DNA from: Eledone cirrhosa | Taxonomy: Eukaryota | NCBI GenBank assembly: GCA_964016885.1 | Contig: OZ024766.1 | Span: 19,406,001 to 19,470,000, forward strand | Reading direction: 5' to 3' | DNA: 64,000 bases | Part shown: piece by piece, positions 25,222-64,000 of the stretch | Numbering within the stretch: position 1 is the stretch's first letter | Layout of the letters: each line of letters begins with the position of its first letter | The notes under the pieces: model-generated | Seen by the model: only the letters and a program-made list of their open reading frames with translations | The model's database searches: none | Told to the model about the DNA's origin: nothing | Program-made: the position numbers and the translations under genes

Positions 25222-25804
25222 CAAAATATTAACATTGGTGGCACAATTTTGGGTGAGTGGTATGGTTTTTATCTTGTCTGATTGTGTTGCATTAAGTAAT
25301 CTTTACAAGAGAATAATTTACCACAGACATCACAGTGATATAGTTCCTCTCCTGTATATGTTAGTGTCTAGTGAAGCCACAACATTTAGAGAATGATTTA
25401 CTGAAGACATTACAGTGATATAGTTCCTCTCCTGTGAATGTTAGTGCCGAATGAAGTGAGTTATTTCAGAGAATGATTTCCCACAGATATCACAGTGATA
25501 TGGTTTCTGTCCTGTATGTATGTGTTTGTGTCTAATTGAACAAGCTATCATGGATAACAATTTACCACAAATATTACAGTGATATGGCTTTTCTCCAGTA
25601 TATATATGTTTGTATGAAGGTAAGTAGCAATGAAAGAGAATAGCACAGTGGCATGGCTTCTCATATGAATGTATTTGTGTTTAATTCACCATTTTCAGAC
25701 AATGAGATATTTTTTGGTAATGGGTTCTCACCCATATGGGTATATTTGTGCCTAGTTAAACTACTTGATACAGAGAATAATTTACCACAGATATCGCAGT
25801 GGTA

Positions 25805-26995
25805 TCACTTGTCTCCTGTATGGGTACGTATGTGTTTAGTTAAGTTACTACTTACAGAGAATGATTTACCACAGATATCGCAGTGGTATGGCTTGTCTCC
25901 TGTATGTATACGTCTGTGTCTAGTTAAGTGACTATGTTGAGAAAATGATATACCACAGATATCACAGTGGTATGGCTTGTCTCCAGTATGGGTACGTTTG
26001 TGTGTCGTTAAGGTACTACTTTCAGAGAATGATTTACCACAGATATCGCAGTGGTATGGCTTCTCTCCTGTATGGGTACGTTTGTGTGTCGTTAAGATCC
26101 TACTTTCAGAGAATAATTTACCACAGATATCACAGTTGAATGGCTTGTCTCCTGTATGCATACGTTTGTGGCAAGTTAAGTTGCTACTTCGAGAGAATGA
26201 TTTACCACAGATATCACAGTGGTATGGCTTGTCTCCTGTATGGATACGTTTGTGTCTAGTTAAGGTACTACTATCAGAGAATGATTTACCACAGATATCA
26301 CAGTGGTATGGCTTGTCTCCTGTATGCATACGTTTGTGGCCCGTTAAGTTGCTACTTTGAGAGAATGATTTACCACAGATTTCGCAGTGGTATGGCTTGT
26401 CAGCTGTATGTATATGTTTGTGTTGAGTTAAGGTACTACTAACAGAGAATGATATACCACAGATATCACAGTGGTATGGCTTGTCTCCTGTATGTGTACG
26501 TACGTGTGTAGTTAAGTGAGTACTTTGAGAGAATGATTTACCACAGATATCACAGTGGTGTGGCTTGTCTCCTGTATGCATACGTTTGTGGCAAGTTAAG
26601 TTGCTACTGTGAGAGAATGATTTGCCACAGATTTCGCAGTGGTATGGCTTGTCTGCTTTATGTATATGTTTGTGTTGAGTTAAGGTACTACTAAAAGAGA
26701 ATGATTTACCACAGATATCACAGTGGTATGGCTTGTCTCCTGTATGCATACGTTTGTGGCAAGTTAAGTTGCTACTTTGAGAGAATGATTTACCACAGAT
26801 ATCACAGTGGTATGGCTTGTCTCCTGTATGCATACGTTTGTGTGGAATTAACTGACAATTTTGAGAGAATGATTTACCACAGATATCACAGTGATATGGT
26901 TTCTCTCCTCTAGACTTTGGCATCTCTTCTGGAATAGCCATATCTCTAGACAATGTTTCACATTTAATCTTCTTCTCACTCAATTTAGTTTCCAT
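25805..26995 (-). CDS. C2H2 zinc-finger protein Z1, 13 fingers (a 14th lies beyond a TGA)
   Basis: 396-aa [12 protein letters not shown] start preceded by an in-frame TAA; TGDKPYH linkers. Confidence 0.92.
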
Positions 26996-28109
26996 GTTTC
27001 TTCTTCCCTTGGCAGAATTTACAGATGTTATTCTTGTCTTATTTTATATATTATATTCCTGAAGATATTACTTCTGCAATATTTCCGTCAACGGTGATCT
27101 CAGTCAAGATCTGAAGATGATGCAAACTTCTTTCTGATCCAAGTTTAGTTAAGGTTAAAAATCATCTGGTAAATATTTCAGATAGTGATGAAACAATACT
27201 TTTCGAAGAATTTTTCCAAGACGCACAGTTCTGAGGAAATATTTCACACTAATTCTGCCATAGATTTATATAAACAGTGTTATATGAGTTCCGTATCAAA
27301 ACCTTTAGTCTTGAAATGATGATAAATAGAGGGGACGTATTCAAGATTAAAAAATAATTTTATCCCAATGTCATCTGATATTCTGAAATAAGAAAGAAAC
27401 AGTATGAGATAATAGAGAATACTTTAGAAACAGAGATAGATTTAACATTGGATATTTTATATTTCTATATTGATAAACTGTAGATATCAACTTTCCTGTC
27501 CAGAGTTATTCTCTCCAATGTAAGCAGTGATATTCCACGATGCTCTATAAACTATATCCTTCTAACTCTTGGGAGGTCTGCTCTATAGCCTTTACCCAAG
27601 AACTTCATTCTTATATGACATTCTAACATGGTAATTGTCTGAGACCTGAGATGTGTAACTTGACAGTTCCTTGAGTAACAGTTCTTTCTACCTGGAAGGG
27701 GAAAAGTGCTGTGTAATTGCTTGATAACAGTCAAAGGATTCTCACACATGGCTACCCTAGGCACCCCAATAACATGACTTGTGTTAGGCTTGTAGACACA
27801 ATTAGGGGAAATTTTTATTCATAGGGATTACATAATTTTAGCGCTATTTTTTATCTTTTCTGTTTGGATGCCTTTCCTCTCATCAACCACTTTACAGCAA
27901 GGACTGGGTGTACTGTTTGTGACACTAGAGAGGTTATTTTAATGGTCTTAAGAGCTCATATACATACATATATATACATATGTATAAATATTTATATGTC
28001 TATACTTATATATACATATATATATATACATATAAATTTCACCAGAGATAGAAAACCAGAATTAGTCATTTAGTTTACATAATGAGACCACAACCCATCC
28101 TATTTATTT

Positions 28110-28287
28110 TAAAGGGTGGGGTGAATTAAGAGTGGGGTGGTGGTGTAAAAAACCTGAAAATTAAATGAGTGTGGGTGGGGGAAAATTATTTGAGACCTAA
28201 GTGAGGGTGGTGAACGATTATTTAAGAAAAAAGTGAGGGTGGGGAACGATTATTTGAGACCAAAGTGAGGGTGGGGGACAATCATTT
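28110..28287 (+). repeat. G-rich box with ~33-bp ATTATTTGAGACCAAAGTGAGGGTGGGG repeats (also ~34560, 42540, 52070, 59040)
   Basis: Directly visible; copy number differs between units; leads straight into the 20-bp minisatellite. Confidence 0.8.
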
Positions 28288-28814
28288 GAGCTACACACAC
28301 ATCTCCTGAGTTACACACACATCTCCTGAGTTATACACACATCTACTGAGTTATATACACATCTACTGAGTTACATACACATCTACTGAGTTATACACAC
28401 ATCTACTGAGTTATACACACATCTACTGAGTTACACACACATCTGAGTTACACATACATCTACTGAGTTACACACATATCTACTGAGTTACACACACATC
28501 TACTGAGATACATACACATCTGCTGAGTTACATACACATCTACTCAGTTATACACACATCTACTGAGTTATACACACATCTACTGAGTTATACACACATC
28601 TACTGAGTTACACAAACATCTGAGTTACATACACATCTGAGTTATACACACATCTACAGAGTTATACACACATCTGAGTTATACACACATCTGAGTTATA
28701 CACACGTCTACTGAGTTACACACACATCTACTGAGTTACACACACATCTACTGAGTTAAACACACGTATACTGAGTTACACACACATGTACATAGTTATA
28801 CACACATCTACTCA
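28288..28814. repeat. 20-bp minisatellite array
   Basis: CTACTGAGTTACACACACAT variants. Confidence 0.97.
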
Positions 28815-29481: not shown

Positions 29482-29521
<40 letters not shown>

Positions 29522-29705: not shown

Positions 29706-29756
<51 letters not shown>

Positions 29757-29999: not shown

Positions 30000-30032
<33 letters not shown>

Positions 30033-30475: not shown

Positions 30476-32190
30476 GTTCCAAATGTCAGACCTTCAATGT
30501 ATCCATACCCAGGGAGGCAAGGCATTCAGAGTATGGTAGATACTTGATGGAGGGTATTCACTTGGTTGCACGTCTCTAAACAATTTCCAGGAGGTCAATG
30601 ATCTAAGCAAGACAGGGGTTCCAGACTGGTGATGCAATTTCTAAGTGTGGCCGCACCATAGCTATTTACAGCTTTAAATAGATAGATAAATGCATAGTCG
30701 TACACTTGTACACAGCCAGCTTGAGTTGCCAGTCCGTGGTCCATTGCTGCATTGTGTCCAGATCTAGTGTTCAGGATCTGTCCTTTTTATCTCAAGGGAC
30801 AGCTCGATGTCATCTGCATATTTCAGTACTGTGACATACTTTAAGTTGCCATCTATGTCATTAATAGATGTGTCAACGGAATTCTCCTATAAATTACCTG
30901 CCGAAGATTCAAAACCGAATCTAAGAGTTCTCACATCTAGGACCACCTATCGTTGCGAGTTTCCCACCATTGTCCTGTCAAGAGACAACAATGATGAACA
31001 TACATGCCACTTGACCTGTGACCCCAGCTTCAAGATAGCTGAAACTCACACGGCTACTCATAAATCAACCCTGTATACACATCCTTCTAGCTATAGGGTT
31101 ATTATAAATACAAGTACAAAGGGAATCCAGCAGCCAGACCACGAAGCAGCAGTGCTTGAGAGAATAACGATGTGGGGTCTACAGACTTCTACTGACCTTT
31201 TACTCTATCTCTCTCTCCTGGCCTTACTGGCTCTCACCTTATCAGCCACAGACTACACCACCAAACAAGAGAGACGGAAGCAGCAGTCCTTGAGAGGAAT
31301 AACAAATACTAAGGATACACACACACTCAGTAGGTTTCATTATACTGTTTACTTCCGTGTTTTATCTATTCTTTTGTCTTCCTGTTGAATCACTTCTCGT
31401 GTATCGTTGTATTGATACATACATACACGCTAGCTCGAAGTAGCTAGTCAGCAAATTGATGTAGTGATAATTCCTGTCACAATTTTTTTGACTCGATGTT
31501 CAATGTAGCAACAAGTGAATATTGTTATTGTAAAATAAACATTGTCAACATCACAATTCTGGCATTATTCTTTTTATCATTCATACACAAAAGAATACAT
31601 TTATCCACTACATATGCAACAAACAAAAGGGGACACAAATTTCTACACACATACATTCACATATATATAGCGTGTGTAAATTCTGAACGCTACAGATTTG
31701 TCAGCACAAGTCTTGGTTACAACTTCAACAAATAAAATGAAAGGAAAAGAATTTCTTAGTAAAACAGTTTTATTGAAAATATTAACAACATTGGTGGCAC
31801 TATTTTGGGTGAGTGATATGGTTTTTATCTTGTCTGATTGTGTTGCATTAAGTAATCTTTACAAGAGAATGATTTACCACAGACATCACAGTGATATAGT
31901 TCCTCTCCTGTATATGTTAGTGTCTAGTGAAGCCACAACATTTAGACAATGATTTATTGCAGACATTACAGTGATATAGTTCCTCTCCTGTATATGTTAG
32001 TGTCTAGTGAAGCCACAATATTTAGAGAATGATTTCTCACAGATATCACAGTGATATGGTTTCTCTCCTGTATGTATATGTTTGTATGAAGTTAAGTAGC
32101 AATGAAAGAGAATAGCACAGTGGCATGGCTTCTCATATGAATGTATTTGTGTTTAATTCACCATTGTCAGATAATGAGATATTTTTTTGG

Positions 32191-33468
32191 TTATGGGTTC
32201 TCAGTCATATGGGTACGTTTGTGTCTAGTTAAGGTACCACCTTCAGTGAATGATTTACCACAGATATCACAGTGGTATGGCTTGTCTCCTGTATGGGTAC
32301 GTAAGTGTTTAGTTAAGTTACTACTTTCAGAGAAGGATATACCACAGGTATCACAGTGGTATGGCTTGTCTCCTGTATGTATACGTTTGTGTCTAGTTAA
32401 GGTACCATTTATAAAGAATGATTTACCACAGATATCACAGTGGTATGGCTTGTCTCCTGTATGGGTACGTAAGTGTGAAGTTAAGGTACAACTATCAGAG
32501 AATGATTTACTACAGATATCACAGTGGTATGGCTTGTCTCCTGTATGTATACGTTTGTGTCTAGTTAAGTTACTACTTCCAGAGAATGATATACCACAGA
32601 TATCACAGTTGTATGGCTTGTCTCCTGTATGGGTACGTATGTGTGTAGTTAAGTGACTACTATCAGAGAATGATTTACCACAGATATCACAGAGGTGTGG
32701 CTTCTCTCCTGTATGTATACGTTTGTGGGAAGTTAAGTGGCTACTTTGAGAGAATGATTTACCACAGATATCGCAGTGGTATGGCTTGTCTGCTGTATGG
32801 GTATATTTGTGTTTAGTTAAGTCACTACTATCGGAGACTGATATACCACAGATATCACAGTGGTATGGCTTGTCTCCTGTATGTATACGTATGTGTCTAG
32901 TTAAGGTACTACTTCGAGAGAATGATTTACCACAGATATCACAGTGGTGTGGCTTCTCTCCTGTATGCATAAGTTTGTGGCAAGTTAACTGACCACTTTG
33001 AGAGAATGATTTACCACAGATATCGCAGTGGTATGGCTTGACTCCTGTATGTATACGTTTGTGTGGAATTAACTGACCACTTTTCGAGAATGATTTACCA
33101 CAGATATCACAGTGGTATGGCTTGTCTCCTGTATGTATACGTTTGTGGCAAGTTAAGTGGCTACTTTGAGAGAATGATTTACCACAGATATCGCATTGGT
33201 ATGGCTTGTCTCCTGTATGTGTTCGTTTGTGTGGAATTAACTGACCACTTCCAGAGAATGATTTACCACAGATTTCGCAGTGGTATGGCTTGTCTCCTGT
33301 ATGTATACGTATGTGTCTAGTTAAGTTACTACTTATATAGAATGATTTACCACAGACATCACAGTGATATGGTTTCTCTCCTCTAGACTTTGGCATCTCT
33401 TCTGGAATAGCCATATCTCTAGACAATGTTTCACATTTAATCTTCTTCACACTCAATTTCGTTTCCAT
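32191..33468 (-). CDS. C2H2 zinc-finger protein Z2, 14 fingers
   Basis: 425-aa ORF ending HMTENP*; finger-for-finger colinear with Z5. Confidence 0.93.
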
Positions 33469-34704
33469 GTTTCTTCTTCCCTTGGCAGAATTTACAGATG
33501 TTATTCTCGTCTTATTTTATATATTATATTCCTGAAGATATTTCTACTGCTATATTTCCGGCAACGGTGATCTCAGTCAAGATCTGAAGATGATGCAAAC
33601 TTCTTTCTGATCCAAGTTTAGTAAAGATTCAAAATCATCTTGTAAATATTTCAGATGCTGATGAAACAATACTTTTCCAAGAATTTTTCCAAGACACACA
33701 GTTCTGAGGAAATATTTCACACTAATTCTGCCATAGATTTATATAAACAGTGTTATATGAGTTCCGTATCAAAACCTTTAGTCTTGAAATGATGATAAAT
33801 AGAGGGGATGTATTCAAGATTAAAAAATAATGTTATCCCAATGTCATCTGATATTCTGAAATAAGAAAGAAACAGTATGAGATAATAGAGAATTCTTTAG
33901 AAACAGAGATAGATTTAACATTGGAAATTTTAAATTTCTATATTGATAAACTGTAGATATCAACTTTCCTGTCCAGAGTTATTCTCTCCAATGTAAGCAG
34001 TGATATTCCACGATGCTCTATAAACTATATCCTTCTAACTCTTGGTAGGTCTGCTCTATAGCCTTTACCCAAGAACTTCATTCTTATATGACATTCTAAC
34101 ATGGTAATTGTCTGAGACCTGAGATGTGTAACTTGACAGTTCCTTGAGTAACAGTTCTTTCTACCTGGAAGGGGAAAAGTGCTGTGTAATTGCTTGATAA
34201 CAGTAAAAGGATTCTCACACATGGCTACCCGAGGCACCCCAATAACATGACTTGTGTTAGGCTTGTAGACACAATTAGTGGGAATTTTTATTCGTAGGGA
34301 TTACATAATTTTAGCACTATTTTTTATCTTTTCTGTTTGGATGCCTTTCCTCTCATCAACCACTTTACAGCAAGGACTGGGTGTATTGTTTGTGGCACTA
34401 GAGAGGTTATTTTACTGGTCTTAAGAGCTCATATATATACATATATATATACATATGTATATACATATATACATATACATATAAATTTCACCAGAGATAG
34501 AAAACCAGAATTAGGCATTTAGTTTACATAATGAGACCCCAACCCATCCTATTTATTTTAAAGGGTGGGGTGAATTAAGCGTGGGGTGGTGGTGTAAAAA
34601 ATCTGAAAATTAAATGAGGGTGGGGGAAAATTATTTGTTTGAGACCAAAGTGAGGGTGGGGGACGATTATTTGGGACCAAAGTTAGAGTCGGGAACGATT
34701 ATTT

Positions 34705-35545
34705 GAGCTACACACACATCTGAGTTACACACACATCTACTGAGTTATACACACATCTACTGAGTTACACACACATCTGAGTTACACACACATCTACTGA
34801 GTTATACACACATCTACTGAGTTACACACACATCTACTGAGTTATACACACATCTACTGAGTTATACACACATCTGAGTTACACACATCTACTGTGTTAC
34901 ACACATCTACTACGTTACACACATCTACTGCGTTACACACACATCTACTGAGCTACACACATATCTACTGAGTTACACACACATCTACAGAGTTACACAC
35001 ACATCTACTGAGTTACACACACATCCACTGAGTTACATACACATCTACAGAGTTACACACACATCTGAGTTACACACACATCTACTGAGTTACACACACA
35101 TCTACTGAGTTACATACACATCTACTGAGCTACACACATCTACTGAGTTACACACACATCTGAGTTACACACACATCTACTGAGTTACATACACACATCT
35201 ACTGAGTTACATACACACATCTACTGAGTTACACACACATCTACTGAGTTACATACACATCTACTGAGTTACATACACATCTACTGAGTTACATACACAT
35301 CTACTAAGTTACACACACATCTGAGTTACACACACATCTACTGAGTTACATACACACATCTACTGAGTTATACACACATCTACTGAGTTACACACACATC
35401 TCCTGAGTTATATACACATCTACTGAGTTACACACACATCTACTGAGTTATACACACGTCTACTGAGTTACACACACATCTACTGAGTTACACACACATC
35501 TACAGAGTTATACACACATCTACTGAGTTATACACACATCTACTT
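34705..35545. repeat. 20-bp minisatellite array
   Basis: CTACTGAGTTACACACACAT variants. Confidence 0.97.
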
Positions 35546-37090: not shown

Positions 37091-38204
37091 GTTCCAGACG
37101 TTGGACCTTCAATGTATCCATACCCAGGGAGGCAAGGCATTCAGAGTATGGTAGATGGTTGATGGAGCATATTCACTTGGTTGCACGTCTCTAAACAATT
37201 TCCAGGAGGTCAATGTTCTGAGCAAGACAGGGGTTCCAGACTGGTGATTCAATTTCTAAGTGTGGCCACACCATAGCTATTTACAGCTTTAAATAGATAG
37301 ATAAATGCATGGTCGTACACTTGTACACAGCCAGCTTCAGTTGCCAGTCCGTGGTCCATTGCTCCATGGCTACTCATAAATCAACCCTGTATACACATCT
37401 AGCTATAGGGTTATTATAAATACAAGTACAAAGGGAATCCAGCAGCCAGACCACGAAGCACTAGTCCTTAAGAGAATAATGATGTGAAACATTCACATTC
37501 TACAGACCCCTTGGGGTCTACAGACTTCTACTGACCTTTTACTCTATCTCTCTCTCCTGGCCTTACTGGCTCTCACCTTCTTGGCCACAGACTACACCAC
37601 CAAACAGGAGAGACCAAAGCAGCAGTCCTTGAGAGGAATAACAAATACTAAGGATACACACACACTCAGTAGGTTTCATTATACTGTTTACTTCTGTGTT
37701 TTATCTATTCTTTCGTCTTCCTGTTGAATCACTTCTCTTGTGTCGTTGTATTGATACATACATACACGCTAGCTCGAAGTAGCTAGTCAGAAAATTGATG
37801 TAGTGATAATTCCTGTCACAAATTTTATTACTTGATATTCAATGTAGCAACAAGTTAATATTGTTATTGTAAAATAAACATTGTCAACATCACAATTCTG
37901 GCATTATTCTTTTTATCATTCATACACAAAAGAATACATTTATCCACTACATATGCAACAAATAAAAGGGGACACAAATTTCAACACACATACATTTCAC
38001 ATATATATAGAGAATGTAAATTCTGAACAATACAGATTTGTCAGCACAAGTCTTGGTTACAAATTCTACAAATAAAATGAAAGGGGAAGAATTTCTTAGT
38101 AAAACAGTTTTATTCAAAATATTAACATTGGTGGCACTATTTTGGGTGAGTGATATGGTTTTTATCTTGTCTGATTGTGTTGCATTAAGTAATTTTTACA
38201 AGAG

Positions 38205-38810
38205 AATGATTTACCACAGACATCAGAGTGATATAGTTCCTCTCCTGTATATGTTAGTGTCTAGTGAAGCCCCAACATTTAGACAATGATTTACCAGACA
38301 TCACAGTGATATGGTTCCTCTCCTATATATGGTAGTGTGTAGTGAAGCCACAACATTTAGACAATGATTTACCAGACATCACAGTGATATGGTTCCTCTC
38401 CTGTATATGGTAGTGTCTAGAGAAGCCCCAACATTTAGACAATGATTTACCAGACATCACAGTGATATGGTTCCTCTCCTGTAAATGTTATTGTCTAGTG
38501 AAGCCACAACATTTAGACAATGATTTACTGCAGACATTACAGTGATGTAGTTCCTCTCCTGTAAATGTTAGTCTAGTGAAGCCACAATATTTAGAGAAGG
38601 ATTTACTGCAGACATCACAGTGATATAGTTCCTCTCCTGTAAATGTTAGTGTGTAGTGAAGCCACAACATATAGAGAATGATTTACCACAGACATCACAG
38701 TGATATGGTTCCTCTCCTGTAAATGTTAGTGTCTAGTGAAGCCACAACATTTAGAGAAGGATTTACCACGGACATCACAGTGATATAGTTCCTCTCCTGT
38801 AAATGTTAGT
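38205..38810 (-). repeat. ~80-bp degenerate finger-derived repeat in the Z3 3' UTR (~7-8 copies)
   Basis: Unit CATCACAGTGATATAGTTCCTCTCCTGTATATGTTAGTGTCTAGTGAAGCCACAACATTTAGACAATGATTTACCACAGA is a finger module lacking 4 bp. Confidence 0.9.
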
Positions 38811-39246
38811 GCCGAATGAAGTGAGTTATTTCAGAGAATGATTTCCCACAGATATCACAGTGATATGGTTTCTCTCCTGTATGTATATGTTTGTGTCTAG
38901 TTGAACAAGCTATCATGGATAACAATTTACCACAAATTTTACAGTGATATGGCTTTTCTCCAGTACATATATGTTTGTATGAAGTTAATGCAGCAATGAA
39001 AGAGAATAGCACAGTGGCATGGCTTCTCATATGAATATATTTGTGTTTAATTCACCATTTTCAGACAATGAGATATTTTTTTGGTTATGGGTTCTCAGCC
39101 ATATGGGTATATTTGTGTCTAGTTAAACTACTTGATACAGATAATGATTTACCTCAGATATCACAGTGGTATGGCTTATCTCCTGTATGGGTACGTTTGT
39201 CTGTAATTAATTGAAAACTTCGAGAGAATGTTTTACCTCAGATATC

Positions 39247-41370
39247 TCAGTGGTATGGCTTGTCTCCTGGATGTGTACGTTTGTGTGTAATTAAGTGACT
39301 ACTTTGAGAGAATGATGTACCACAGATATCACAGTGATATGGCTTGTCTCCTGTATGTGTACGTTTGTGGCTAGTTAAGTTACCACTTTCAGAGAATGAT
39401 TTACCACAGATATCACAGTGGTATGGCTTGTCTCCTGTATGTATACGTAAGTGTTTAGTTAAGGTACTACTTACAGAGAATGATTTACCACAGATATCAC
39501 AGTGGTATGGCTTGTCTCCTGTATGGGTACGTTTGTGTGTAGTTAAACTACTTGATACAGAGAACGATTTACCACAGATATCACAGTGGTATGGCCTGTC
39601 TCCTGTATGTATACGTTTGTGTCTACTTAAGTTACTACTTCCAGAGAATGATATACCACAGATATCACAGTGGTATGGTTTGTCTCCAGTATGGGTACGT
39701 TCGTGTTTAGTTAAGGTACCACCTTCAGAGAATGATTTACCACAGATATTACAGTGGTATGACTTGTCTCCTGTATGGGGACGTAAATGTGTAGTTAACT
39801 TACTACTATCAGAGAATGATTTACCAGAGATATCGCAGCGGTATGGCCTGTCTCCTGTATGGGTATGTTTGTGTTTAGTTAAGGTACTACCTTCAGAGAA
39901 TGATTTACCACAGATATCGCAGTGGTATGACATGTCTCCTGTATGTATACGTTTGTGGCAAGTTAAGTGGCTACTTTGAGAGAATGATTTACCACAGATT
40001 TCACAGTGGTATGGCTTGTCTCCTGTATGGGTACGTAAGTGTTTAGTTAAGGTACTACTATCAGAGAATGATTTACCACAGATATCACAGTGGTATGGCT
40101 TGTCTCCTGTATGGGTATATTTGTGTCTAGTTAAACTACTTGATACAGAGAATAATTTACCACAGATATCACAGTGGTATGGCTTGTCTCCTGTATGGGT
40201 ATATTTGTGTCTAGTTAAACTACTTGAAACAGAGAATAATTTACCACAGATATCGCAGTGGTATGACTTGTCTCCTGTATGGGTACGTAAGTGTTTAGTT
40301 AAGGTACTACTATCAGAGAATGATATACCACAGATATCACAGTGGTATGGCTTGTCTCCTGTATGTATACGTTTGTGTCTAGTTAAGTGACTACTTTTAG
40401 AGAATGATATACCACAGATATCACAGTGGTATGGCTTGTCTCCTGTATGTATACGTTTGTGTCTAGTTAAGGTACCATTTATAAAGAATGATTTACCACA
40501 GATATCACAGTGGTATGGCTTGTCTCCTGTATGGGTACGTAAGTGTGAAGGTAAGTTACTACTATTAGAGAATGATTTACCACAGATTTCGCAGTGGTAT
40601 GGCTTGTCTCCTGTATGTATACGTTTGTGTCTAGTTAAGTGACTACTTTTAGAGAATGATTCACCACAGATATCACAGTGGTATGGCTTGTCTCCTGTAT
40701 GTATACGTTTGTGTCTAGTTAAGTGACTACTTTTAGAGAATGATTTACCACAGATATCACAGTGGTATGGCTTGTCTCCTGTATGTATACGTATGTGTGT
40801 AGTTAAGTTACTACTTCGAGAGAATGATCTACCACAGATATCACAGTGGTATGGCTTGTCTCCTGTATGTATACGTTTGTGGGAAGTTAAGTTGCTACTT
40901 TGAGAGAATGATTTACCACAGATTTCGCAATGGTATGGCTTGTCTGCTGTATGTATACGTATGTGTGTAGTTAAGTGACTACCTTTAGAGAATGATATAC
41001 CACAGATATCACAGTGGTATGGCTTGTCTCCTGTATGTATATGTATGTGTGTAGTTAAGTGACTACTTCGAGAGAATGATTTACCACAGATATCACAGTG
41101 GTGTGGCTTCTCTCCTGTATGTATACGTTTGTGTCTAGTTAAGGTACTACTTTGAGAGAATGATTTACCACAGATATCGCAGTGGTATGGCTTGTCTCCT
41201 GTATGTGTACGTTTGTGTGGAATTAACTGACAATTTTGAGAGAATGATTTACCACAGATATCACAGTGATATGGTTTCTCTCCTCTAGACTTTGGCATCT
41301 CTTCTGGAATAGCCATATCTCTAGACAATGTTTCACATTTCATCTTCTTCTCACTCAATTTAGTTTCCAT
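39247..41370 (-). CDS. C2H2 zinc-finger protein Z3, 24 fingers (one with CDIS)
   Basis: 707-aa ORF; ends at a TGA that occupies a Cys codon. Confidence 0.92.
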
Positions 41371-42711: not shown

Positions 42712-43571
42712 TGAGCTACACACACATCTGAGTTATACACACATCTACTGAGTTATACACACATCTACTGAGTTACATACACATCTACTGAGTTACACAC
42801 AATCTACTGAGTTACACACACATCTACTGAGTTATACACACATCTACTGAGTTATACACACATCTACTGAGTTACAGACACATCTGAGTTACACAAATGT
42901 CTACTGAGTTACATACACATCTACTGAGTTACACACACATCTACTGAGTTACACACACATCTAGTGAGTTACACACACATCTACTGAGTTACACACACAT
43001 CTACTGAGTTACACACACATCTACTGAGTTACACACACATCTACTGAGTTACATACACAGCTACTGAGTTACACACATCTACTGAGTTACACACACATCA
43101 ACTGAGTTACACACACATCTACTGAGTTACACACACATCTACTGAGTAACACACATCTGAGTTACACACACATCTACTGAGTTATACACACATCTACTGA
43201 GTTATACACACATCTAGTGAGTTACACACACATCTACTGAGTTACACACACATCTACTGAGTTACACACACATCTACTGAGTTACACACATCTACAGAGT
43301 TACACATATCTACTGAGTTACACACACATCTACTGATTTACACACACATCTACTGAGTTATACACACATCTACAGAGTTATACACACATCTACTGAGTTA
43401 CACACACATCTGAGTTATACACACATCTACTGAGTTATACACACATCTACTGAGTTATACACACATCTACTGAGTTATACACATCTACATAGTTACACAC
43501 ACATCTACTGAGTTACACACACATCTACTGAGTTACACACACATCAACTGAGTTACACACACATCTACTCA
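42712..43571. repeat. 20-bp minisatellite array
   Basis: CTACTGAGTTACACACACAT variants. Confidence 0.97.
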
Positions 43572-46288: not shown

Positions 46289-46913
46289 AGTAAAAACCTA
46301 CTACAGTCAGTAGGCATCTCTATCAAAACACCCCCCCCCCCCCCCCCCGTCCCACCACCTCCACCCCATCCACACCGCCCCTTTCAATGTACAGTTATGT
46401 TGGTCCCACAACATCCAGGCCGAAACAAATGAGATCGTGTAGGTGTCACGACAAAAAAACACACAGTCCACGCTGTAATGTGGCCGTGTAGGCAACACGG
46501 TAAAAACCTCCCAGTCCCACACTGTAAATGTGGTTGGTGTTAGGAAGGGCATCCAGCTGTAGAAATCCCGCCAGACAGTCCACGCTGTAAATGTGGCCGT
46601 GTAGGCAACACGGTAAAAACCTCCCAGCCCCACACTGTAAATGTGGTTGGTGTTAGGAAGGGCATCCAGCTGTAGAAAACCCGCCAGACAGTCCACGCTG
46701 TAATGTGGCCGTGTAGGCAACACGGTAAAAACCTCCCAGCCCCACACTGTAAATGTGGTTGGTGTTAGGAAGGGCATCCAACTGTAGAAAACCCGCCAGA
46801 CAGTCCTATGCGAGCAAGACAACCACTCTTGCCTCAAGTGGGAAAACCCCCGTCCAAACCCATGCAAGCGTGGAACACGGACGCTAAACCTGATGATGAT
46901 GATGATGATGATG
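46289..46913 (+). mobile_element. Unit-specific insertion of the 112-bp-repeat element (~3 units, (GAT)n tail)
   Basis: The empty site TTTTATCATTCATACAC of the other units is split here, with ATCAT on both sides. Homologous to 14250-17465. Confidence 0.9.
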
Positions 46914-47851
46914 ATCATTCATACACAAAAGAATGCATTTATCCACTACATATGCAACAAACAAAAGGGGACACAAATTTCTACACACATACGATCACAT
47001 ATATATAGCGTATGTAAATTCTGAACAATACAGATTTGTCAGCACAAGTCTTGGTTACAACTTCTACAAATAAAATGAAAGGAGAAGAATTTCTTAGTAA
47101 AACAGTTTTATTCAAAATATTAACATTGGTGGCACTATTTTGGGTGAGTGATATGGTTTTTATCTTGTCTGATTGTGTTGCATTAAGTAATCTTTACAAG
47201 AGAATGATTTACCACAGACATCACAGTGATATAGTTCCTCTCCTGTATATGTTAGTGTGTAGGGAAGCCCCAACATTTAGACAATGATTTACCAGACATC
47301 ACAGTGATATGGTTCCTCTCCTGTATATGTTAGTGTCTCTAGTGAAGCCACAACATTTAGAGAATGATTTACTGCAGACATTACAGTGATATGGTTCCTC
47401 TCCTGTATATGTTAGTGTCTAGTGAAGCCACAACATTTAGACAATGATTTTCTGCAGACATTACAGTGATATGGTTCCTCTCCTGTATATGTTAGTGTCT
47501 AGTGAAGCCACAATATTTAGAGAAGGATATACTGCAGACATTACAGTGATATAGTTCCTCTCCTGTAAATGTTAGTGCCGAATGAAGTGAGTTATTTCAG
47601 AGAATGATTTCCCACAGATATCACAGTGATATGGTTTCTCTCCTGTACGTATATGTTTGTGTCTAATTGAATAAGCTATCATGGATAACAATTTACCACA
47701 AATATTACAGTGATTGGCTTTTCTCCAGTATATATATGTTTGTATGAAGTTAAGTAGCAATGAAAGAGAATAGCCCAGTGGCATGGCTTCTCATATGAAT
47801 GTATTTGTGTTTAATTTACCATTGTCAGACATTCAGATATTTTTTTAGTTA

Positions 47852-47944: not shown

Positions 47945-49960
47945 TCATGTATGGGTATGTAAGTGTTTAGTTAAGTAACTACTATCAGAGAATGATTTAC
48001 CACAGATATCACAGTGGTATGGCTTGTCTCCTGTATGCATACGTTTGTGGCAAGTTAAGTTGCTACTTTGAGAGAATGATTTACCACAGATTTCGCAGTG
48101 GTATGGCTTGTCTGCTGTATGTATATGTTTGTGTCTAGTTAAGGTACTACTAACAGAGAATGATATACCACAGATATCACAGTGGTATGGCTTGTCTCCT
48201 GTATGTATACGTACGTGTGTAGTTAAGTGAGTACTTTGAGAGAATGATTTACCACAGATATCACAGTGGTGTGGCTTGTCTCCTGTATGCATATGTTTGT
48301 GGCAAGTTAAGTTGCTACTTCGAGAGAATGATTTACCACAGATTTCGCAGTGGTATGGCTTGTCTGCTGTATGTATACGTTTGTGTCTAGTTAAGGTACT
48401 ACTAACAGAGAATGATTTACCACAGATATCACAGTGATATGGCTTGTCTCCTGTATGTATACGTTTGTGTGTAGTTAAGTGGCTACATTGAGAGAATGAT
48501 TTACCACAGATTTCGCAGTGGTATGGCTTGTCTGCTGCATGTATACGTTTGTGTTTAGTTAAGTGACTACTAACAGAGAATGATATACCACAGATATCAC
48601 AGTGGTATGGCTTGTCTCCTGTATGTATACGTATGTGTGTAGTTAAATGACGACTATCAGAGAATGATTTACCACAGATATCGCAGTGGTATGGCTTTTC
48701 TCCTGTATGTATACGTTTGTGGCAAGTTAAGGTACTACTAACAGAGAATGATTTACCACAGATATCGCAGTGGTATGGCTTGTCTCCTGTATGTATACGT
48801 TTGTGTGGAATTAACTGACCACTTTTAGAGAATGATTTACCACAGACATCACAGTGGTATGGCTTGTCTCCTGTATGGGTACGTAAGTGTGAAGTTAAGG
48901 TACCACTTTCAGAGAATGATTTACCACAGATATCACAGTGGTATGGCTTGTCTCCTGTATGTATACGTTTGTGTCTAGTTAAGGTACTACTAACAGAGAA
49001 TGATATACCACAGATATCACAGTGGTATGGCTTGTCCCCTGTATGTATACGTATGTGTGTAGTTAAGTGACTACTATCAGAGAATGATTTACCACAGATA
49101 TCACAGAGGTGTGGCTTCTCTCCTGTATGTATACGTTTGTGGGAAGTTAAGTTGCTACTTTGAGAGAATGATTTACCACAGATTTCGCAGTAGTATGGCT
49201 TCTCTGCTGTATGTATATGTTTAGATAAGGTACTACTATCAGAGAATGATATACCACAGATATCACAGTGGTATGGCTTGTCTCCTGTATGTATATATTT
49301 GTGGCAAGTTAAGTGGCTACTTTGAGAGAATGATTTATTACAGATATCACAGTGGTGTGGCTTGTCTCCTGTGTGTATACGTTTGTGTCTAGTTAAGGTA
49401 CTACTTTGAGAGAATGATTTACCACAGATATCGCAGTGGTATGGCTTGTCTCCTGTATGTGTACGTTTGTGTGGAATTAACTGAGCATTTTGAGAGAATG
49501 ATTTACCACAGATATCACAGTGGTATGGCTTGTCACCTGTATGTATATGTTTGTGGCTAGTTAAGGTACTCCTAACAGAGAATGATTTACCACAGATTTC
49601 GCAGTGGTATGGCTTGTCTCTTGTATGTGTACGTTTGTGGCAAGTCAAGTTACTACTATCAGAGAATGATCTACCACAGATATCACAGTGGTATGGCTTG
49701 TCTCCTGTATGTATACGTTTGTGTCTAGTTAAGTCACTATTTTGAGAGAATGATTTACCACAGATATCACAGTGGTATGGCTTGTCTCCTATATGTGTAC
49801 GTTTGTGTGGAATTAACTGACCATTTTGAGAGAATGATTTACCACAGACATCACAGTGATATGGTTTCCCCCCTGTAGACTTTGGCATCTCTTCTGGAAT
49901 AGCCATATCTCTAGACAATGTTTCACATTTAATCTTCTTCTCACTCAATTTAGTTTCCAT
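47945..49960 (-). CDS. C2H2 zinc-finger protein Z4, 23 fingers (finger 8 has a 2-aa deletion; a 24th lies beyond a TGA)
   Basis: 671-aa ORF. Confidence 0.92.
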
Positions 49961-52177: not shown

Positions 52178-52763
52178 TGAGCTACACACACATCTACTGA
52201 GTTACACACACATCTACTGAGTTACATACACATCTACTGAGTTACATACACATCTACTGAGTTACACACACATCTACTTAGTTACACACACATCAACTGA
52301 GTTACATACACATCTACTGAGTTATACACACATCTACTGAGTTACACACACATCTACTGAGTTATACACACATCTACTGAGTTATACACACATCTACTGA
52401 GTTAGACACACATCGGAGTTACATACACATCTACTGATTTACACACATCGGAGTTACATACACATCTACTGAGTTACACACACATCTACTGAGTTATACA
52501 CACATCTGAGTTACACACACATCTACTGAGTTACACACACATCTACTGGGTTATACACACATCTACTGAGTTATACACATCTACTGAGTAACACACACAT
52601 CTACTGAGTTATACACATCTACTGAGTTACACACACATCTACTGAGTTATACACACATCTACTGAGTTATACACACATCTACTGAGTTATACACACATCT
52701 ACTGAGTTATACACACATCTACTGAGTTACACACACATCTACAGAGTTATACACACATCTACT
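52178..52763. repeat. 20-bp minisatellite array
   Basis: CTACTGAGTTACACACACAT variants. Confidence 0.97.
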
Positions 52764-53408: not shown

Positions 53409-53463
<55 letters not shown>

Positions 53464-55534: not shown

Positions 55535-56460
55535 AGAGAATGATTTACCACAGACATAACAGTGATATAGTTCCTCTCCTGTATATGTTAGTGTGTAGTG
55601 AAGCCCCAACATTTAGACAATGATTTACTGCAGACATTACAGTGATATGGTTCCTCTCCTGTATATGTTAGTGTCTAGTGAAGCCACAACATTTAGACAA
55701 TGATTTACCACAGACATCACAGTGATATAGTTCCTCTCCTGTATATGTTAGTGTCTAGTGAAGCCAAAACATTTAGACAATGATTTACCACAGACATCAC
55801 AGTGATATAGTTCCTCTCCTGTATATGTTAGTGTGTAGTGAAGCCACAACATTTAGACAATGATTTACCACAGACATCACAGTGATATAGTTCCTCTCCT
55901 GTATATGTTAGTGTCTAGTGAAGCCACAATATTTAGAGAAGGATTTACTGCAGACATCACAGTGATATAGTTCCTCTCCTGTATATGTTAGTGTCTAGTG
56001 AAGCCACAACATTTAGACAATGATTTGCCAGACATCACAGTGATATGGTTCCTCTCCTGTATATGCTAGAGTCTAGTGAAGCCCCAACATTTAGACAATG
56101 ATTTACTGCAGACATTACAGTGATATGGTTCCTCTCCTGTATATGATAGTGTCTAATGAAGCCACAACATTTAGACAATGATTTACTGCAGACATTACAG
56201 TGATATGGTTTCTCTCCTGTATATGTTAGTGTCTAGTGAAGCCACAATATTTAGAGAAGGATTTACTGCAGACATTACAGTGATATGGTTCCTCTCCTGT
56301 ATATGTTAGTGTCTTGTGAAGCCACAACATTTAGACAATGATTTACCACAGACATCACAGTGATATAGTTCCTCTCCTGTATATGTTGGTGTCTAGTAAA
56401 GCCACAATATTTAGAGAATGATTTCCCACAGATATCACAGTGATATAGTTCCTCTCCTGT
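55535..56460 (-). repeat. 80-bp finger-derived satellite in the Z5 3' UTR (~11 copies)
   Basis: CAGACATCACAGTGATATAG at 55711, 55791 and 55871 gives period 80. Confidence 0.92.
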
Positions 56461-56662: not shown

Positions 56663-57940
56663 TTATGGGTTCTCAGTCATATGGGTACGTTTGTGTCTAG
56701 TTAAGGTACCACCTTCAGTGAATGATTTACCACAGATATCACAGTGGTATGGCTTGTCTCCTGTATGGGTACGTAAGTGTTTAGTTAAGCTACTTCTTTC
56801 AGTGAATGATATACCACAGGTATCACAGTGGTATGGCTTGTCTCCTGTATGTATACGTTTGTGTCTAGTTAATGTACCATTTATAAAGAATGATTTACCA
56901 CAGATATCACAGTGGTATGGCTTGTCTCCTGTATGGGTACGTAAGTGTGAAGTTAAGTTACTACTATCAGAGAATGATTTACCACAGATATCACAGTGGT
57001 ATGGCTGGTCTCCTGTATGTATACGTTTGTGTCTAGTTAAGGTACTACTAACAGAGAATGATATACCACAGATATCACAGTGGTATGGCTTGTCGCCTGT
57101 ATGTATACGTTTGTGTGTAGTTAAGTGACTACTATCAGAGAATGATTTACCACAGATATCACAGAGGTGTGGCTTCTCTCCTGTATGTATACGTTTGTGG
57201 GAAGTTAAGTGGCTACTTTGAGAGAATGATTTACCACAGACATCGCAGTGGTATGGCTTGTCTGCTGTATGGGTATATTTGTGTTTAGTTAAGTCACTAC
57301 TATCAGAGAATGATATACCACAGATATCACAGTGGTATGGCTTGTCTCCTGTATGTATACGTATGTGTCTAGTTAAGGTACTACTTCGAGAGAATGATTT
57401 ACCACAGATATCACAGTGGTGTGGCTTCTCTCCTGTATGCATACGTTTGTGGCAAGTTAACTGACCACTTTGAGAGAATGATTTACCACAGATATCGCAG
57501 TGGTATGGCTTGTCTCCTGTATGTATACGTTTGTGTGGAATTAACTGACCATTTCGAGAGAATGATTTACCACAGATTTCGCAGTGGTATGGCTTGTCTC
57601 CTGTATGTATACGATTGTGGCAAGTTAAGTGGCTACTTTGAGAGAATGATTTACCACAGATATCACAATGGTATGGCTTGTCTCCTGTATGTGTACGTTT
57701 GTGTGGAATTAACTGACCACTTCCAGAGAATGATTTACCACAGATTTCGCAGTGGTATGGCTTGTCTCCTGTATGTATACGTATGTGTCTAGTTAAGTTA
57801 CTACTTATATAGAATGATTTACCACAGACATCACAGTGATATGGTTTCTCTCCTCTAGACTTTGGCATCTCTTCTGGAATAGCTATATCTCTAGACAATG
57901 TTTCACATTTAATCTTCTTTTCACTCAATTTAGTTTCCAT
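56663..57940 (-). CDS. C2H2 zinc-finger protein Z5, 14 fingers (close paralog of Z2)
   Basis: 425-aa ORF ending HMTENP*. Confidence 0.93.
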
Positions 57941-59248: not shown

Positions 59249-59539
59249 TGAGCTACACACACATCTACTGAGTTACACACACATCTACTGAGTTATACAC
59301 ACATCTACTGAGTTATATGCATCTAATGAGTTACACACACACACATCTACTGAGTTACACACACATCTACTGAGTTACATACACATCTACTGAGTTACAC
59401 ACACATTTACTGAGTTACATACACATCTACAGAGTTACACACACATCTACTGAGTTATACACACATCTACTGAGTTATACACACATCTACTGAGTTACAC
59501 ACACATCTACTGAGTTATACACACATCTACATAGTTATA
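59249..59539. repeat. 20-bp minisatellite array (shortest)
   Basis: CTACTGAGTTACACACACAT variants. Confidence 0.95.
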
Positions 59540-59840: not shown

Positions 59841-59872
<32 letters not shown>

Positions 59873-60770: not shown

Positions 60771-61186
60771 GAATTACCAATGAATACAGTGAAGAATTTA
60801 GTATAAAAGTTGGTGTTCATCAAGGCTCAGTCCTTAGCCCCCTCCTATTTATTATTGCCCTTCAGGCTAAAACAAAGGAGTTTAAGACTGGCTGCCCATG
60901 GGAACTTCTATACGCAGATGATCTAACAGCTGAACTAGATAAGATATTCCAAACATGGAAGCATGGCCTAGAATCAAAAGGCCTTAAAGTTAACTTGACT
61001 AAGACTAATGTTCTAGTTTGTAGGAAGGAAAATAGGGCACAGGTGTAGGAAAGGAGTAGGTAGAAATTCCATTTTATCTCCCAAATACAAACTATGGGTA
61101 CATAACAGATGCAATGGGAACACAGGCCAGCTATCTAAGAACGTAGATTTTATATGTGGCTGATGCTCAGGTGCAATAAGTAGCAA
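60771..61186 (+). mobile_element. RTE RT fragment (unit copy with YADD)
   Basis: GAACTTCTATACGCAGATGAT encodes ELLYADD; short deletion in the Cys-rich segment. Confidence 0.88.
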
Positions 61187-62996
61187 GTTCCAGATGTCAG
61201 ACCTTCAATGTATCCATACCCAGGGAGGCAAGGCATTCAGAGTATGGTAGATGGTTGATGGAGCGTATTCACTTGATTGCACGTCTCTAAACAATTTCCA
61301 GGAGGTCAATAATCTGAGCAAGATAGGGGTTCCAGACTGGTGATTCAATTTCTAAGTGTGGCCGCACCATAGCTATTTACAGCTTTAAATAGATAGATAA
61401 ATGCATGGTCGTACACTTGTACACAGCCAGCTTGAGTTGCCAGTCCGTGGTCCATTGCTGCATTGTGTCCAGATCTATAGTGTTCAGGATCTGTCCTTTT
61501 TATCTTAATAGACAGCTTGATGTCATCTGCATATTTCAGTACTGTGACACTCTTTAAGTTGCCATCTATGTCATTAAAATATGTCAACAGAATTCTCCTA
61601 TAAATTACCTGGCGAAGATTCAAAACCGAATCTAAAAGTTCTCGCATCTGGGACCACCTATCGTTGCGAGTTTCCCACCATTGTCCTGTCAAGAGACAAC
61701 AATGATGAACATACATGCCACTTGACCTGTGACCCCAGCTTCAAGATAGCTGAAACTCACATGGCTACTCATAAATCAACCCTGTATACACATCCTTCTA
61801 GCTATAGGGTAATTATAAATACAAGTACAAAGGGAATCCAGCAGCCAGACCACAAAGCAGTAGTGCTTGAGGGAATAATGATGTGAAACATTCACGTTCT
61901 ACAGACCCCTTGGGGTCTACAGACTTCTACTGACCTTTTACTATATCCCTCTCTCCTGGCCTTACTGGCTCTCACTTTCTTGGCCACAGACTACACCACC
62001 AAACAAGAGAGACCGAAGCAGCAGTCCTTGAGAGGAATAACAAATACTAAGGATACACACACACTCAGTAGGTTTCATTATACTGTTTACTACTGGGTTT
62101 TATCTATTATTTCGTCTTCCTGTTGAATCACTTCTATTGTATCGTTGTATTGATACATACATACACGCTAGCTCGAAGTAGCTAGTCAGCAAATTGATGT
62201 AGTGATAATTCCTGTCACAAATTTTATTACTTGATATTCAATGTAGCAACAAGTTAATATTGTTATTGTAAAATAAACATTGTCAACATCACAATTCTGG
62301 CATTATTCTTTTTATCATTCATACACAAAAGAATACATTTATCCACTACATATGCAACAAATAAATGGGGACACAAATTTCAACACACATACATTCACAT
62401 ATATATAGCGTATGTAAATTCTGAACGATACAGATTTGTCAGCACAAGTCTTGGTTACAACTTCTACAAATGAAATGAAAGGGGAAGAATTTCTTAGTAA
62501 AACAGTTTTATTCAAAATATTAACATTGGTGGCACTATTTTGGGTGAGTGATATGGTTTTTATCTTGTCTGAAAGTAATCTTTACAAGAGAATGATTTAC
62601 CACAGACATCACAGTGATATAGTTCCTCTCCTGTAAATGTTAGTATCTAGTGAAGCCACAACATTTAGAGAAGGATTTACTGCAGACATCACAGTGATAT
62701 AGTTCCTCTCCTGTAAACGTTAGTGCCGAATGAAGTGAGTTATTTCAGAGAATGATTTCCCACAGATATCACAGTGATATGGTCTCTCTCCTGTATGTAT
62801 ATGTTTGTGTCTAGTTGAACAAGCTATCATGGATAACAATTTACCACAAATATTACAGTGATTGGCTTTTCTCCAGTATATATATGTTTGTATGAAGTTA
62901 AGTAGCAATGAAAGAGAATTGCACAGTGGCATGGCTTCTCATATGAATGTATTTGTGTTTAATTCACCATTTTCAGACAATGAGATATTTTTTTGG

Positions 62997-64000
62997 TTAT
63001 GGGTTCTCACCCATATGGGTATATTTGTGCCTAGTTAAACTACTTGATACAGAGAATGATTTACCACAGATATCGCAGTGGTATGACTTGTCTCCTGTAT
63101 GGGTACGTATGTGTTTAGTTAAGTTACTACTTGCAGAGAAGGATTTGCCACAGATATCGCAGTGGTATGGCCTGTCTCCTGTATGTATACGTAAGTGTTT
63201 AGTTAAGGTACTACTTACAGAGAATGATTTACCACAGATATCACAGTGGTATGGCTTGTCTCCTGTATGGGTACGTTTGTGTGCAGTTAAACTACTTGAT
63301 ACAGAGAACGATTTACCACAGATATCACAGTGGTATGACTTGTCTCCTGTATGGGTACGTAAGTGTTTAATTAAGGTACTACTATCAGAGAATGATTTAC
63401 GACAGATATCACAGTGGTATGGCCTGTCTCCTGTATGTATACGTTTGTGTCTACTTAAGTTACTACTTCCAGAGAATGATATACCACAGATATCACAGTG
63501 GTATGGTTTGTCTCCAGTGTGGGTACGTTCGTGTTTAGTTAAGGTACCACCTTCAAAGAATGATTTACCACAGATATTACAGTGGTATGGCTTGTCTCCT
63601 GTATGGGGACGTAAATGTGTAGTTAACTTACTACTATCAGAGAATGATTTACCAGAGATATCGCAGCGGTATGGCCTGTCTCCTGTATGGGTACGTTTGT
63701 GTTTAGTTAAGGTACCACCTTCAGAGAATGATTTACCACAGATATCGCAGCGATATGGCCTGTCTCCTGTATGGGTACGTTTGTGTCTAGTTAAGGTACC
63801 ACTTTCAGAGAATGATTTACCACAGATTTCGCAGTGGTATGGCTTGTCTCTTGAATGTGTACGTTTGTGGCAAGTTAAGTTACTACTATCAGAGAATGAT
63901 CTACCACAGATATCACAGTGGTATGGCTTGTCTCCTGTATGTATACGTTTGTGTCTAGTTAAGTCACTACTTTGAGAGAATGATTTACCACAGATATCAC
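62997..64000 (-). CDS. C2H2 zinc-finger protein Z6, 5'-partial (~12 fingers visible)
   Basis: Finger frame runs from the window edge to ...[21 protein letters not shown] (62997-62999) with 84-bp periodicity; missing from the ORF track. Confidence 0.9.

What the first reader, a model, noticed from the sequence alone, without database searches (positions are those of the whole stretch)
25721..64000. Finger-shuffling ZNF array: paralogs are mosaics of shared finger blocks
Seen: flanks and N-termini are near-identical, yet finger number is 13/14/24/23/14 and diagnostic fingers occur at different positions in different genes. Z1 fingers 3-8 match Z4 fingers 18-23 ([12 protein letters not shown]). 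The PHLC-DSSH block is in Z2, Z5 and Z4; the FFINGT finger is in Z2, Z5 and Z3. Z6 joins Z4-like fingers 2-3 ([19 protein letters not shown]...RDK) to the Z3 block CDISG/CNIC-EGGT/GSSNLSR and a Z1-like end. Variation is concentrated in the recognition helix while the 84-bp scaffold is homogenised. Known: cephalopods have expanded clustered C2H2 genes, and PRDM9 arrays evolve as coding minisatellites. Inference: the cluster behaves as a shared finger library that generates new DNA-binding specificities by unequal crossover or conversion, without a KRAB or SET domain, possibly against the surrounding TEs and satellites.
Basis: partly seen in the sequence, partly recalled or inferred. Interest (0 to 1): 0.75.

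Follow-up and report, generated by a model that had tools for sequence, protein, structure and literature searches.

The report
Finger-swapping zinc-finger gene cluster
About 45 neighbouring copies of a zinc-finger gene, likely from an octopus, are patchworks of one shared pool of 84-base finger units with unusually varied DNA-reading positions, so they would keep producing new DNA-binding proteins; similar swapping is known in mouse gene clusters, and what these proteins bind is untested.

Summary
Six minus-strand C2H2 genes (13/14/24/23/14/13 fingers) lie in ~7-kb tandem units of a ~45-gene cluster. Fingers do not group by gene (12.45 nt apart within, 12.54 between), and blocks recur at shifted positions with 0-6 differences per finger. 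Exchange between paralogues is shown: 5' and 3' flank trees conflict, hybrids can be traced, and near-identical copies differ by short conversion-like tracts. Positions -1/+3/+6 carry 3.6-4.1 times the synonymous diversity; 26 of 31 recent contact changes swap alleles already common in the pool. Qualifications: flanks recombine too and non-coding minisatellites vary as much, so the engine is ordinary tandem-array recombination; new point mutations show no contact excess; targets, expression and raw-read assembly checks are missing. It evolves like PRDM9's array but is not PRDM9. Block shuffling among paralogues is in print for mouse KRAB clusters (PMC5363842), and this scan noted the same pattern elsewhere in this genome (e1-9557371). 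Extra: the cluster's helices converge on those of the genome's PRDM9 candidate (9 of 20) without sharing DNA. Verdict: new variant of a known kind.

The parts
25805..26995 (-). Z1 coding sequence: 30-aa leader + 13 C2H2 fingers; nonsense codon one finger before the family's usual last finger
32191..33468 (-). Z2 coding sequence: leader + 14 fingers, collinear with Z5
39247..41370 (-). Z3 coding sequence: leader + 24 fingers, painted from at least six donor genes; nonsense codon two fingers before the usual end
47945..49960 (-). Z4 coding sequence: leader + 23 fingers (one of 26 aa); nonsense codon one finger before the usual end
56663..57940 (-). Z5 coding sequence: leader + 14 fingers
62997..64000 (-). 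Z6, 3' part (13 fingers in the whole gene, which runs on past the window): Z4-like start, Z3-like middle, Z1-like end
25308..25516 (-). Non-coding 80-bp repeat derived from a finger, 2.6 copies, behind Z1
31864..32073 (-). 80-bp finger-derived repeat, 2.6 copies, behind Z2
38201..38881 (-). 78-80-bp finger-derived repeat, 8.6 copies, behind Z3
47199..47647 (-). 80-bp finger-derived repeat, 5.6 copies, behind Z4
55535..56460 (-). 80-bp finger-derived repeat, 11.6 copies, behind Z5
62587..62795 (-). 80-bp finger-derived repeat, 2.6 copies, behind Z6
28287..28812 (.). 20-bp minisatellite of the duplicated unit, 27 copies (also 34704-35544: 43; 42712-43569: 44; 52178-52763: 30; 59249-59530: 14)
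33469..34429 (-). Conserved ~1-kb 5' flank of the unit (shown for Z2) with a candidate splice acceptor at 33856 (also 27383, 41758, 50349, 58316); splicing not shown
7833..9008 (-). Z0, older paralogue outside the finding: 13 fingers, no finger closer than 8 nt to the cluster's; comparison only

Best explanation
This is a young tandem cluster of about 45 single-ORF C2H2 zinc-finger genes whose 84-bp fingers and flanks are mosaics of one another, likely made by unequal crossover and gene conversion between the ~7-kb units, with diversifying selection likely keeping the DNA-contact positions varied, so that each gene would read a different DNA sequence. Steps. Shown: units 93-97% alike; fingers pooled across genes; conflicting histories of 5' flank, array and 3' flank; whole-finger gains and short in-register tracts between near-identical copies; contact diversity 3.6-4.1 times synonymous; zinc ligands almost never broken in coding fingers. 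Inferred: misaligned pairing between fingers (about 85% alike, 84-bp register) lets a crossover change finger number in frame and join the front of one gene to the back of another, while short conversions homogenise the scaffold and move helix alleles, also half-helices; exchange is mostly local. Inferred from known families: the proteins are sequence-specific repressors or chromatin-targeting factors for fast-changing repeats, perhaps through the psi-K-x-E (SUMO-type, consensus recalled) motif in the 30-aa leader. The targets are not shown.
For: Pooling: (33 of 41 ORFs with 8 or more fingers are painted from two or more donor genes; 351 of 673 fingers are best matched in another gene at another position, 59 in the own gene; the painting has no null). 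Intergenic exchange: 5' and 3' flank trees of 34 genes reject each other (AU p 6e-54 and 2e-4, 2000 replicates, below the program's advice); four-gamete fraction 0.467 and 0.512 against at most 0.379 and 0.361 in 20 no-recombination simulations each; g17 follows g16 in the 5' flank and finger 1, then g18 in fingers 2-11 and most of the 3' flank. Recent events: Z3 and its block copy differ at 14 of 2169 nt, all in three tracts, one with 9 differences in 33 bp that matches Z6 finger 9 at 41 of 42 nt; g7 and its copy differ by two added fingers. Locality: nearest finger 2.1 and 2.0 nt within a sub-cluster, 4.3 and 4.5 across; the lone copy on C25 is closer to itself for 20 of 23 fingers against 29 of 664 in the cluster. 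Selection: piN/piS 4.13, 3.61, 3.75 at -1, +3, +6; four contact sites together 3.26 (bootstrap 2.2-5.1; 2.7-3.9 for kappa 1-4), rest 0.56; contact alleles are enriched among common over rare alleles against synonymous ones (22:13 vs 14:52, p 6e-5); synonymous sites at +4 and +5, between the variable codons, stay at 0.03-0.04. Function: 5 of 459 distinct coding units have a broken zinc ligand. Library use: 26 of 31 recent contact changes are between two common alleles.
Against: In 59 recent finger pairs, rare (new) alleles show no contact excess (1.10) and non-contact rare changes are near neutral (0.95), so present-day selection is not shown. Multi-difference pairs are not more clustered than expected (span 37.7 vs 38.6, 15 pairs). 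Fingers are not independent, so the p values are optimistic. Flank trees are star-like, which weakens tree tests. The lone copy on C18 does not behave like the one on C25 (own gene closer for 3 of 12). 4 of 44 genes carry an internal frameshift and 16 of 44 a late nonsense codon. No expression, binding or population data.
Confidence: 0.7

Rival explanations
1. Neutral minisatellite turnover with relaxed constraint: the array is shuffled like any repeat in this repeat-rich region, contact diversity is inherited from an older selected past, and the new combinations are now largely unselected, redundant copies.
For: Non-coding repeats in the same unit vary as much (20-bp: 14-68 copies; 80-bp: 2.6-11.6); flanks recombine; rare alleles near neutral outside the zinc ligands; a frameshift is carried by three paralogues and twice within one.
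Against: Zinc ligands intact in 454 of 459 coding units and nonsense codons confined to the last one or two fingers; synonymous sites next to the contact codons are homogenised while the contact codons are not, which conversion alone would not keep up for long.
Confidence: 0.22
2. No exchange between genes: all paralogues descend from one long ancestral array and diverged only by internal duplication and deletion.
For: Shared blocks differ by about 2%, close to the 3.3% between flanks; internal duplications exist (59 of 673 fingers).
Against: Flank incongruence and traceable hybrids; g39 has a 3' flank identical to g32's but another array; an ancestor would need most of 200 fingerprints.
Confidence: 0.04
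3. Mis-assembly: chimeric or falsely duplicated arrays.
For: The seven-gene, ~52-kb block is repeated at 97-99% and could be a second haplotype placed in tandem; no raw reads of this assembly could be laid.
Against: Shared blocks differ at up to 6 nt per finger rather than being identical; the same mosaics stand in both block copies, which differ from each other; no N in 264 kb; frames stay open.
Confidence: 0.04

Closest known systems
Young mouse KRAB-ZFP clusters (PMC5363842, section 7 and passages read; PMC12575710, passages read)
   Same: Tandem clusters; runs of 2-7 fingerprint triplets repeated within and among non-adjacent paralogues; multi-gene block duplications; fast turnover of fingerprint arrays.
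   Different: No KRAB in the ORF; a compact ~7-kb unit; here the between-gene exchange and allele swapping are quantified, and within-gene finger distance equals between-gene distance. TE binding is shown for the mouse genes, not here.
PRDM9 zinc-finger array (PMC2779102 passages; PMC5519329 section 10 part 1 and passages)
   Same: 84-bp coding minisatellite, homogenised scaffold, excess change at -1, +3, +6, variable finger number.
   Different: No PR/SET; the pool spans dozens of genes, not one; weaker signal (piN/piS about 4 against dN/dS 10-14 in human PRDM9, different methods; finger identity median 0.856 against over 0.90 in mouse). The genome has a separate PR/SET-linked array on another contig with other synonymous codons.
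Lineage-specific poly-ZF expansions (PMC2604467 passages) and zebrafish FiNZ-ZNFs (PMC10547256 passages)
   Same: Positive selection at contact residues, finger gain and loss, gene conversion among paralogues (most genes in the chicken sets); short N-terminal leader without KRAB; octopus ZNFs predicted in bulk to bind TEs.
   Different: Conversion was reported as short and in few genes for most sets; FiNZ sits in its own exon, whereas this leader is in the finger ORF.
Hemipteran ZF271-like/APEZ clusters (PMC6444547 passages)
   Same: Invertebrate tandem clusters of finger-only genes, 3-45 fingers, high turnover, likened to array shuffling.
   Different: There gene structures differ within clusters and no nucleotide-level pooling was shown in the passages read.
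Cephalopod C2H2 expansions (PMC12513265, first seventh of the text and passages)
   Same: Large lineage-specific C2H2 expansions.
   Different: The paper's main text has 0 occurrences of 'recombination' or 'gene conversion'; it calls the TE arms race an open question.

Membership tests
Tandem C2H2 (Krueppel-type) poly-zinc-finger genes | Repeats of C-x2-C-x12-H-x3-H with TGEKP-type linkers | tested here: met
   (PF00096, PF13465 far above cut-off for 3 of 3 proteins)
Cephalopod-expanded C2H2 clusters | Cephalopod origin | tested here: inconclusive
   No named hit. 3.0-Gb genome, ZNF abundance and earlier AI notes point to an octopod; Atlas rows were generic
Cephalopod-expanded C2H2 clusters | Tandem clustering of recent paralogues | tested here: met
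Cephalopod-expanded C2H2 clusters | Nervous-system expression | not testable with these tools
   no tissue-labelled RNA reads
PRDM9 | PR/SET methyltransferase domain in the gene | tested here: not met
   0 of 14 PF21549 matches lie on contig C27; ORFs start 30 aa before finger 1
PRDM9 | KRAB and SSXRD domains | tested here: inconclusive
   no match in the genome, but nothing rang in the controls either
PRDM9 | Homogenised array with diversity focused on contact residues | tested here: met
   share of diversity at -1/2/3/6: median 0.42 (0.35-0.57) in 49 ORFs, 0.30 in 30 other arrays (a biased sample that includes 3 family members), 0.50 in the genome's PRDM9 candidate
PRDM9 | Array descended from or exchanging DNA with the PRDM9 array | tested here: not met
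   0 of 36 helices identical in DNA; scaffold 29-34% different; +1 Ser is TCT there, AGT here
KRAB-ZFP | N-terminal KRAB domain | tested here: inconclusive
   none among the 25 families shown per protein (of 33-40) and no room in the 30-aa leader; an upstream coding exon is unlikely (stop just 5' of the leader) but not excluded
KRAB-ZFP | Binding and repression of transposable elements | not testable with these tools
   no binding data and no validated recognition-code model on hand

The most novel reading that the evidence does not exclude
The cluster is an enzyme-less, PRDM9-like repertoire: dozens of genes draw on one finger pool whose helices have converged on those of the genome's own PRDM9 candidate (9 of 20 distinct helices shared, against 2 of 296 for other zinc-finger genes, with no shared DNA), so the proteins would occupy PRDM9-type sites and shield repeats or compete for recombination hotspots, chasing PRDM9 as it changes.
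Probability: 0.08. Interest if true: 0.85.

Novelty: new variant of a known kind. Interest (0 to 1): 0.5.

Why it matters
It shows, with tests, how a KRAB-less invertebrate zinc-finger expansion can make new binding specificities: mostly by swapping existing helix alleles and finger blocks between paralogues rather than by new mutation. That bears on the open question whether cephalopod C2H2 genes are in an arms race with repeats, warns that gene trees and codeml tests on such families are unreliable, and offers near-identical gene pairs that differ by one finger or half a helix as ready test cases for binding assays. The ingredients are each known from mouse KRAB clusters and PRDM9.

Tried and rejected
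Expression: no RNA holder listed. Contigs of four and then four runs were laid on Z2's leader and 5' flank: run X2, of unrecorded kind, has a 308-base contig across the leader and lower summed depth upstream of about 34000, but no splice joint was listed and contig depth cannot rank parts, so nothing is concluded. Clustering of differences within fingers: no signal. DNA exchange with the PRDM9 candidate: rejected. KRAB and SSXRD genome searches: uninformative. Atlas search of the leader plus finger 1: generic C2H2 clusters only. Search of earlier findings by sequence: nothing. Paper searches: one search found 0 papers with 5 of 6 terms; searches listed no paper on finger exchange among cephalopod paralogues in the rows shown (30 of 33, 30 of 37, 20 of 75, 15 of 87, 15 of 324); PMC4795812 is not held; subscription papers and supplements were not seen, so 'not in print' is limited to these searches. 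Motif prediction against local satellites was not run: no validated model. 200 of the 230 kb between the two sub-clusters were read and hold no family member. Rows dropped: g0, g26, g29 (other leaders) and 23 of 795 fingers failing a ligand or linker filter, so those calls cannot speak on ligand conservation (one search is unfiltered); five divergent or partial genes, the block copies g8-g14 and g45.
Full report
What is there. Six-frame translation gives six C2H2 arrays on the minus strand between 25.8 and 64 kb, plus an older paralogue Z0 at 7.8-9.0 kb. Each gene is one open frame: a 30-aa leader and 13, 14, 24, 23, 14 and 13 fingers. Each sits in a ~7-kb unit with a 20-bp minisatellite, AT repeats, a ~1-kb 5' flank, decayed fingers behind the stop, an 80-bp finger-derived repeat and a ~1.8-kb 3' flank. 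The window is G000:C27:19406001-19470000 in a 3.0-Gb genome. Reading on, I found 52 finger ORFs (832 fingers) in 464 kb: 28 on the minus strand up to 19.66 Mb and 24 at 19.92-20.07 Mb, five of them frameshift pieces; 44 genes carry the family leader. More members lie at C27 15.9-16.2 and 21.9 Mb and singly on C25, C18, C8. Octopod origin is an inference; no call named the organism.

The observation. All named blocks were found, with Z1/Z4 sharing five fingers at the limit used rather than six. Fingers are as far apart within a gene as between genes (12.45 vs 12.54 nt), and 94 of 124 have their nearest neighbour in another gene. A least-cost painting draws 33 of 41 ORFs from two or more donors; Z3 uses at least six (no null model).

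Is it exchange between genes? Descent from one long ancestor could also share blocks, so I tested the flanks, which align without the fingers. Across 42 genes 5' and 3' distances are uncorrelated (rho -0.01, where two 3' flanks with deletions align badly). On 34 cleaned genes, Mantel r is 0.26 and 0.36 for two neighbouring segment pairs within a flank and -0.10 to 0.17 across the array, with 1 of 6 5'-3' pairs at p 0.04; the two ML trees reject each other. Four-gamete fractions (0.467, 0.512) exceed all 20 no-recombination simulations per flank. Single hybrids can be read: g17 switches from g16 to g18 at finger 1-2; g42 and g23 switch inside the 5' flank; g39 has g32's 3' flank and another array. 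So exchange is real, and it is not confined to the fingers.

Recent events. Z1-Z6 and the next gene are repeated as a ~52-kb block. Five pairs differ at 0-5 nt. Z3 and its copy differ at 14, all in three tracts of 8, 13 and 33 bp; the 33-bp tract turns the second half of finger 20 into that of Z6 finger 9 (41 of 42 nt), a hybrid helix. The seventh pair differs by two added fingers. Whether the block is a duplication or a second haplotype is open; either way these are very recent differences. Within fingers, r2 falls from 0.078 under 10 bp to 0.005 beyond 60 bp, as expected if crossovers also fall inside fingers.

Selection. On 483 distinct fingers (772 of 795 passed a filter), piN over pooled piS is 4.13, 3.61 and 3.75 at -1, +3, +6, 1.6 at +1 and +2, 1.7-2.0 at three residues after the first His, and 0.56 over the rest. 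The synonymous sites of +4 and +5 stay at 0.03-0.04 between hypervariable codons. Contact alleles are common more often than synonymous ones (22:13 vs 14:52), which argues against a mutation hotspot. Against this, in 59 recent finger pairs anchored by both neighbours, the contact excess (2.85) comes wholly from swaps between common alleles (4.12; 26 of 31 changes); rare alleles give 1.10 at contacts and 0.95 elsewhere. The library is thus old and selected, its present use is by swapping, and current selection on new combinations is not shown. Function is supported by ligands: 5 of 459 distinct coding units are broken, and nonsense codons at five different codon positions clip only the last one or two fingers in 16 of 44 genes.

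Controls from the same units. The 20-bp repeat has 14-68 copies and differs in 5 of 7 block pairs; the 80-bp repeat has 2.6-11.6 copies. The window holds many 96-99% identical minisatellites. Copy-number change is therefore general here; what sets the finger array apart is that the 84-bp register keeps the frame and that contact diversity persists.

Comparison with PRDM9. No PR/SET match lies on this contig. A PR/SET exon on C22 is followed by an array with 36 canonical fingers; I did not verify that it is PRDM9 beyond this and an earlier AI note. Its share of diversity at contact sites is 0.50, the cluster's median 0.42, that of 30 other arrays 0.30 (vertebrate full-length PRDM9 values run from 0.33 to 1.0 in PMC5519329 Table 1). 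It shares no helix with the cluster in DNA (0 of 36) and codes +1 Ser by TCT instead of AGT, yet 9 of its 20 distinct helices occur in the cluster's 242, against 2 of 296 from other arrays. This is convergence; it may only reflect a preference of fast-turning arrays for Ser/Thr-rich helices, and the comparison set is small and biased.

What is known. PMC5363842 (section 7 read) reports blocks of 2-7 fingerprints repeated within and among non-adjacent mouse paralogues; PMC12575710 (passages) multi-gene block duplications; PMC2604467 (passages) conversion among poly-ZF paralogues and contact selection; PMC6444547 (passages) finger-only insect clusters; PMC10547256 (passages) predicted TE binding for octopus ZNFs in bulk; PMC2779102 (passages) concerted evolution of PRDM9; bioRxiv 10.64898/2026.09.07.749791 (passages) cnidarian PRDM9 paralogues; PMC12513265 (first part and passages) cephalopod expansions without mention of recombination. 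No supplements were read. My searches listed no account of finger pooling among cephalopod paralogues. This scan recorded the same pattern on other DNA of this genome (e1-9557371).

Verdict. Real, mechanistically well supported, a KRAB-less, many-gene version of processes known from mouse KRAB clusters and PRDM9. It works like PRDM9's array in how it evolves, and is not a PRDM9 or, on present evidence, a KRAB-ZFP. Targets, expression and read-level proof are missing. Interest 0.5.

Noticed in passing
G000:C27:19431308-19529533 (starts at window 25308): Seven-gene, ~52-kb block repeated in tandem at 97-99% identity, no N; true duplication or second haplotype not decided.
   Followed up: partly
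L081-L082 (G000:C22:11549628 onward): PR/SET exon followed by an array of 36 canonical fingers whose helices converge on the cluster's in protein but not in DNA.
   Followed up: partly
window 25805, 39247, 47945 and 13 more genes of the cluster: Nonsense codons at five different codon positions each remove only the last one or two fingers, as if the shared terminal finger is dispensable or disfavoured.
   Followed up: partly
leader of each gene, e.g. window 33420-33468: I-K-C-E in 35 and M-K-C-E in 10 of 46 leaders: fits the psi-K-x-E SUMO consensus (recalled); untested.
   Followed up: no
window 6689-7925: 149-bp repeat, 8.3 copies at 98%, made of Z0's last finger, its stop codon and 3' sequence.
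   Followed up: no
window 1208-22076: Dense run of young minisatellites (72, 49, 61, 96, 109, 112, 50, 20 bp; 92-99% identical), with the 112-bp unit again at 46463-46806.
   Followed up: no
G000:C27:19950162-19989952 (L026-L029): The same frameshift in the array stands in three paralogues and twice within one, where a ~15-finger block is doubled: a lesion travelling with a finger block.
   Followed up: partly
L105-L107 (G000:C27:15.9-16.2 Mb), L048-L051 (21.87-21.91 Mb): Further clusters of the same family, with fingers about 5-6 nt from this cluster's nearest.
   Followed up: partly
window 33700-34020: Part of the 5' flank draws very high contig depth in two runs, likely a high-copy repeat inside the putative 5' UTR.
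   Followed up: no
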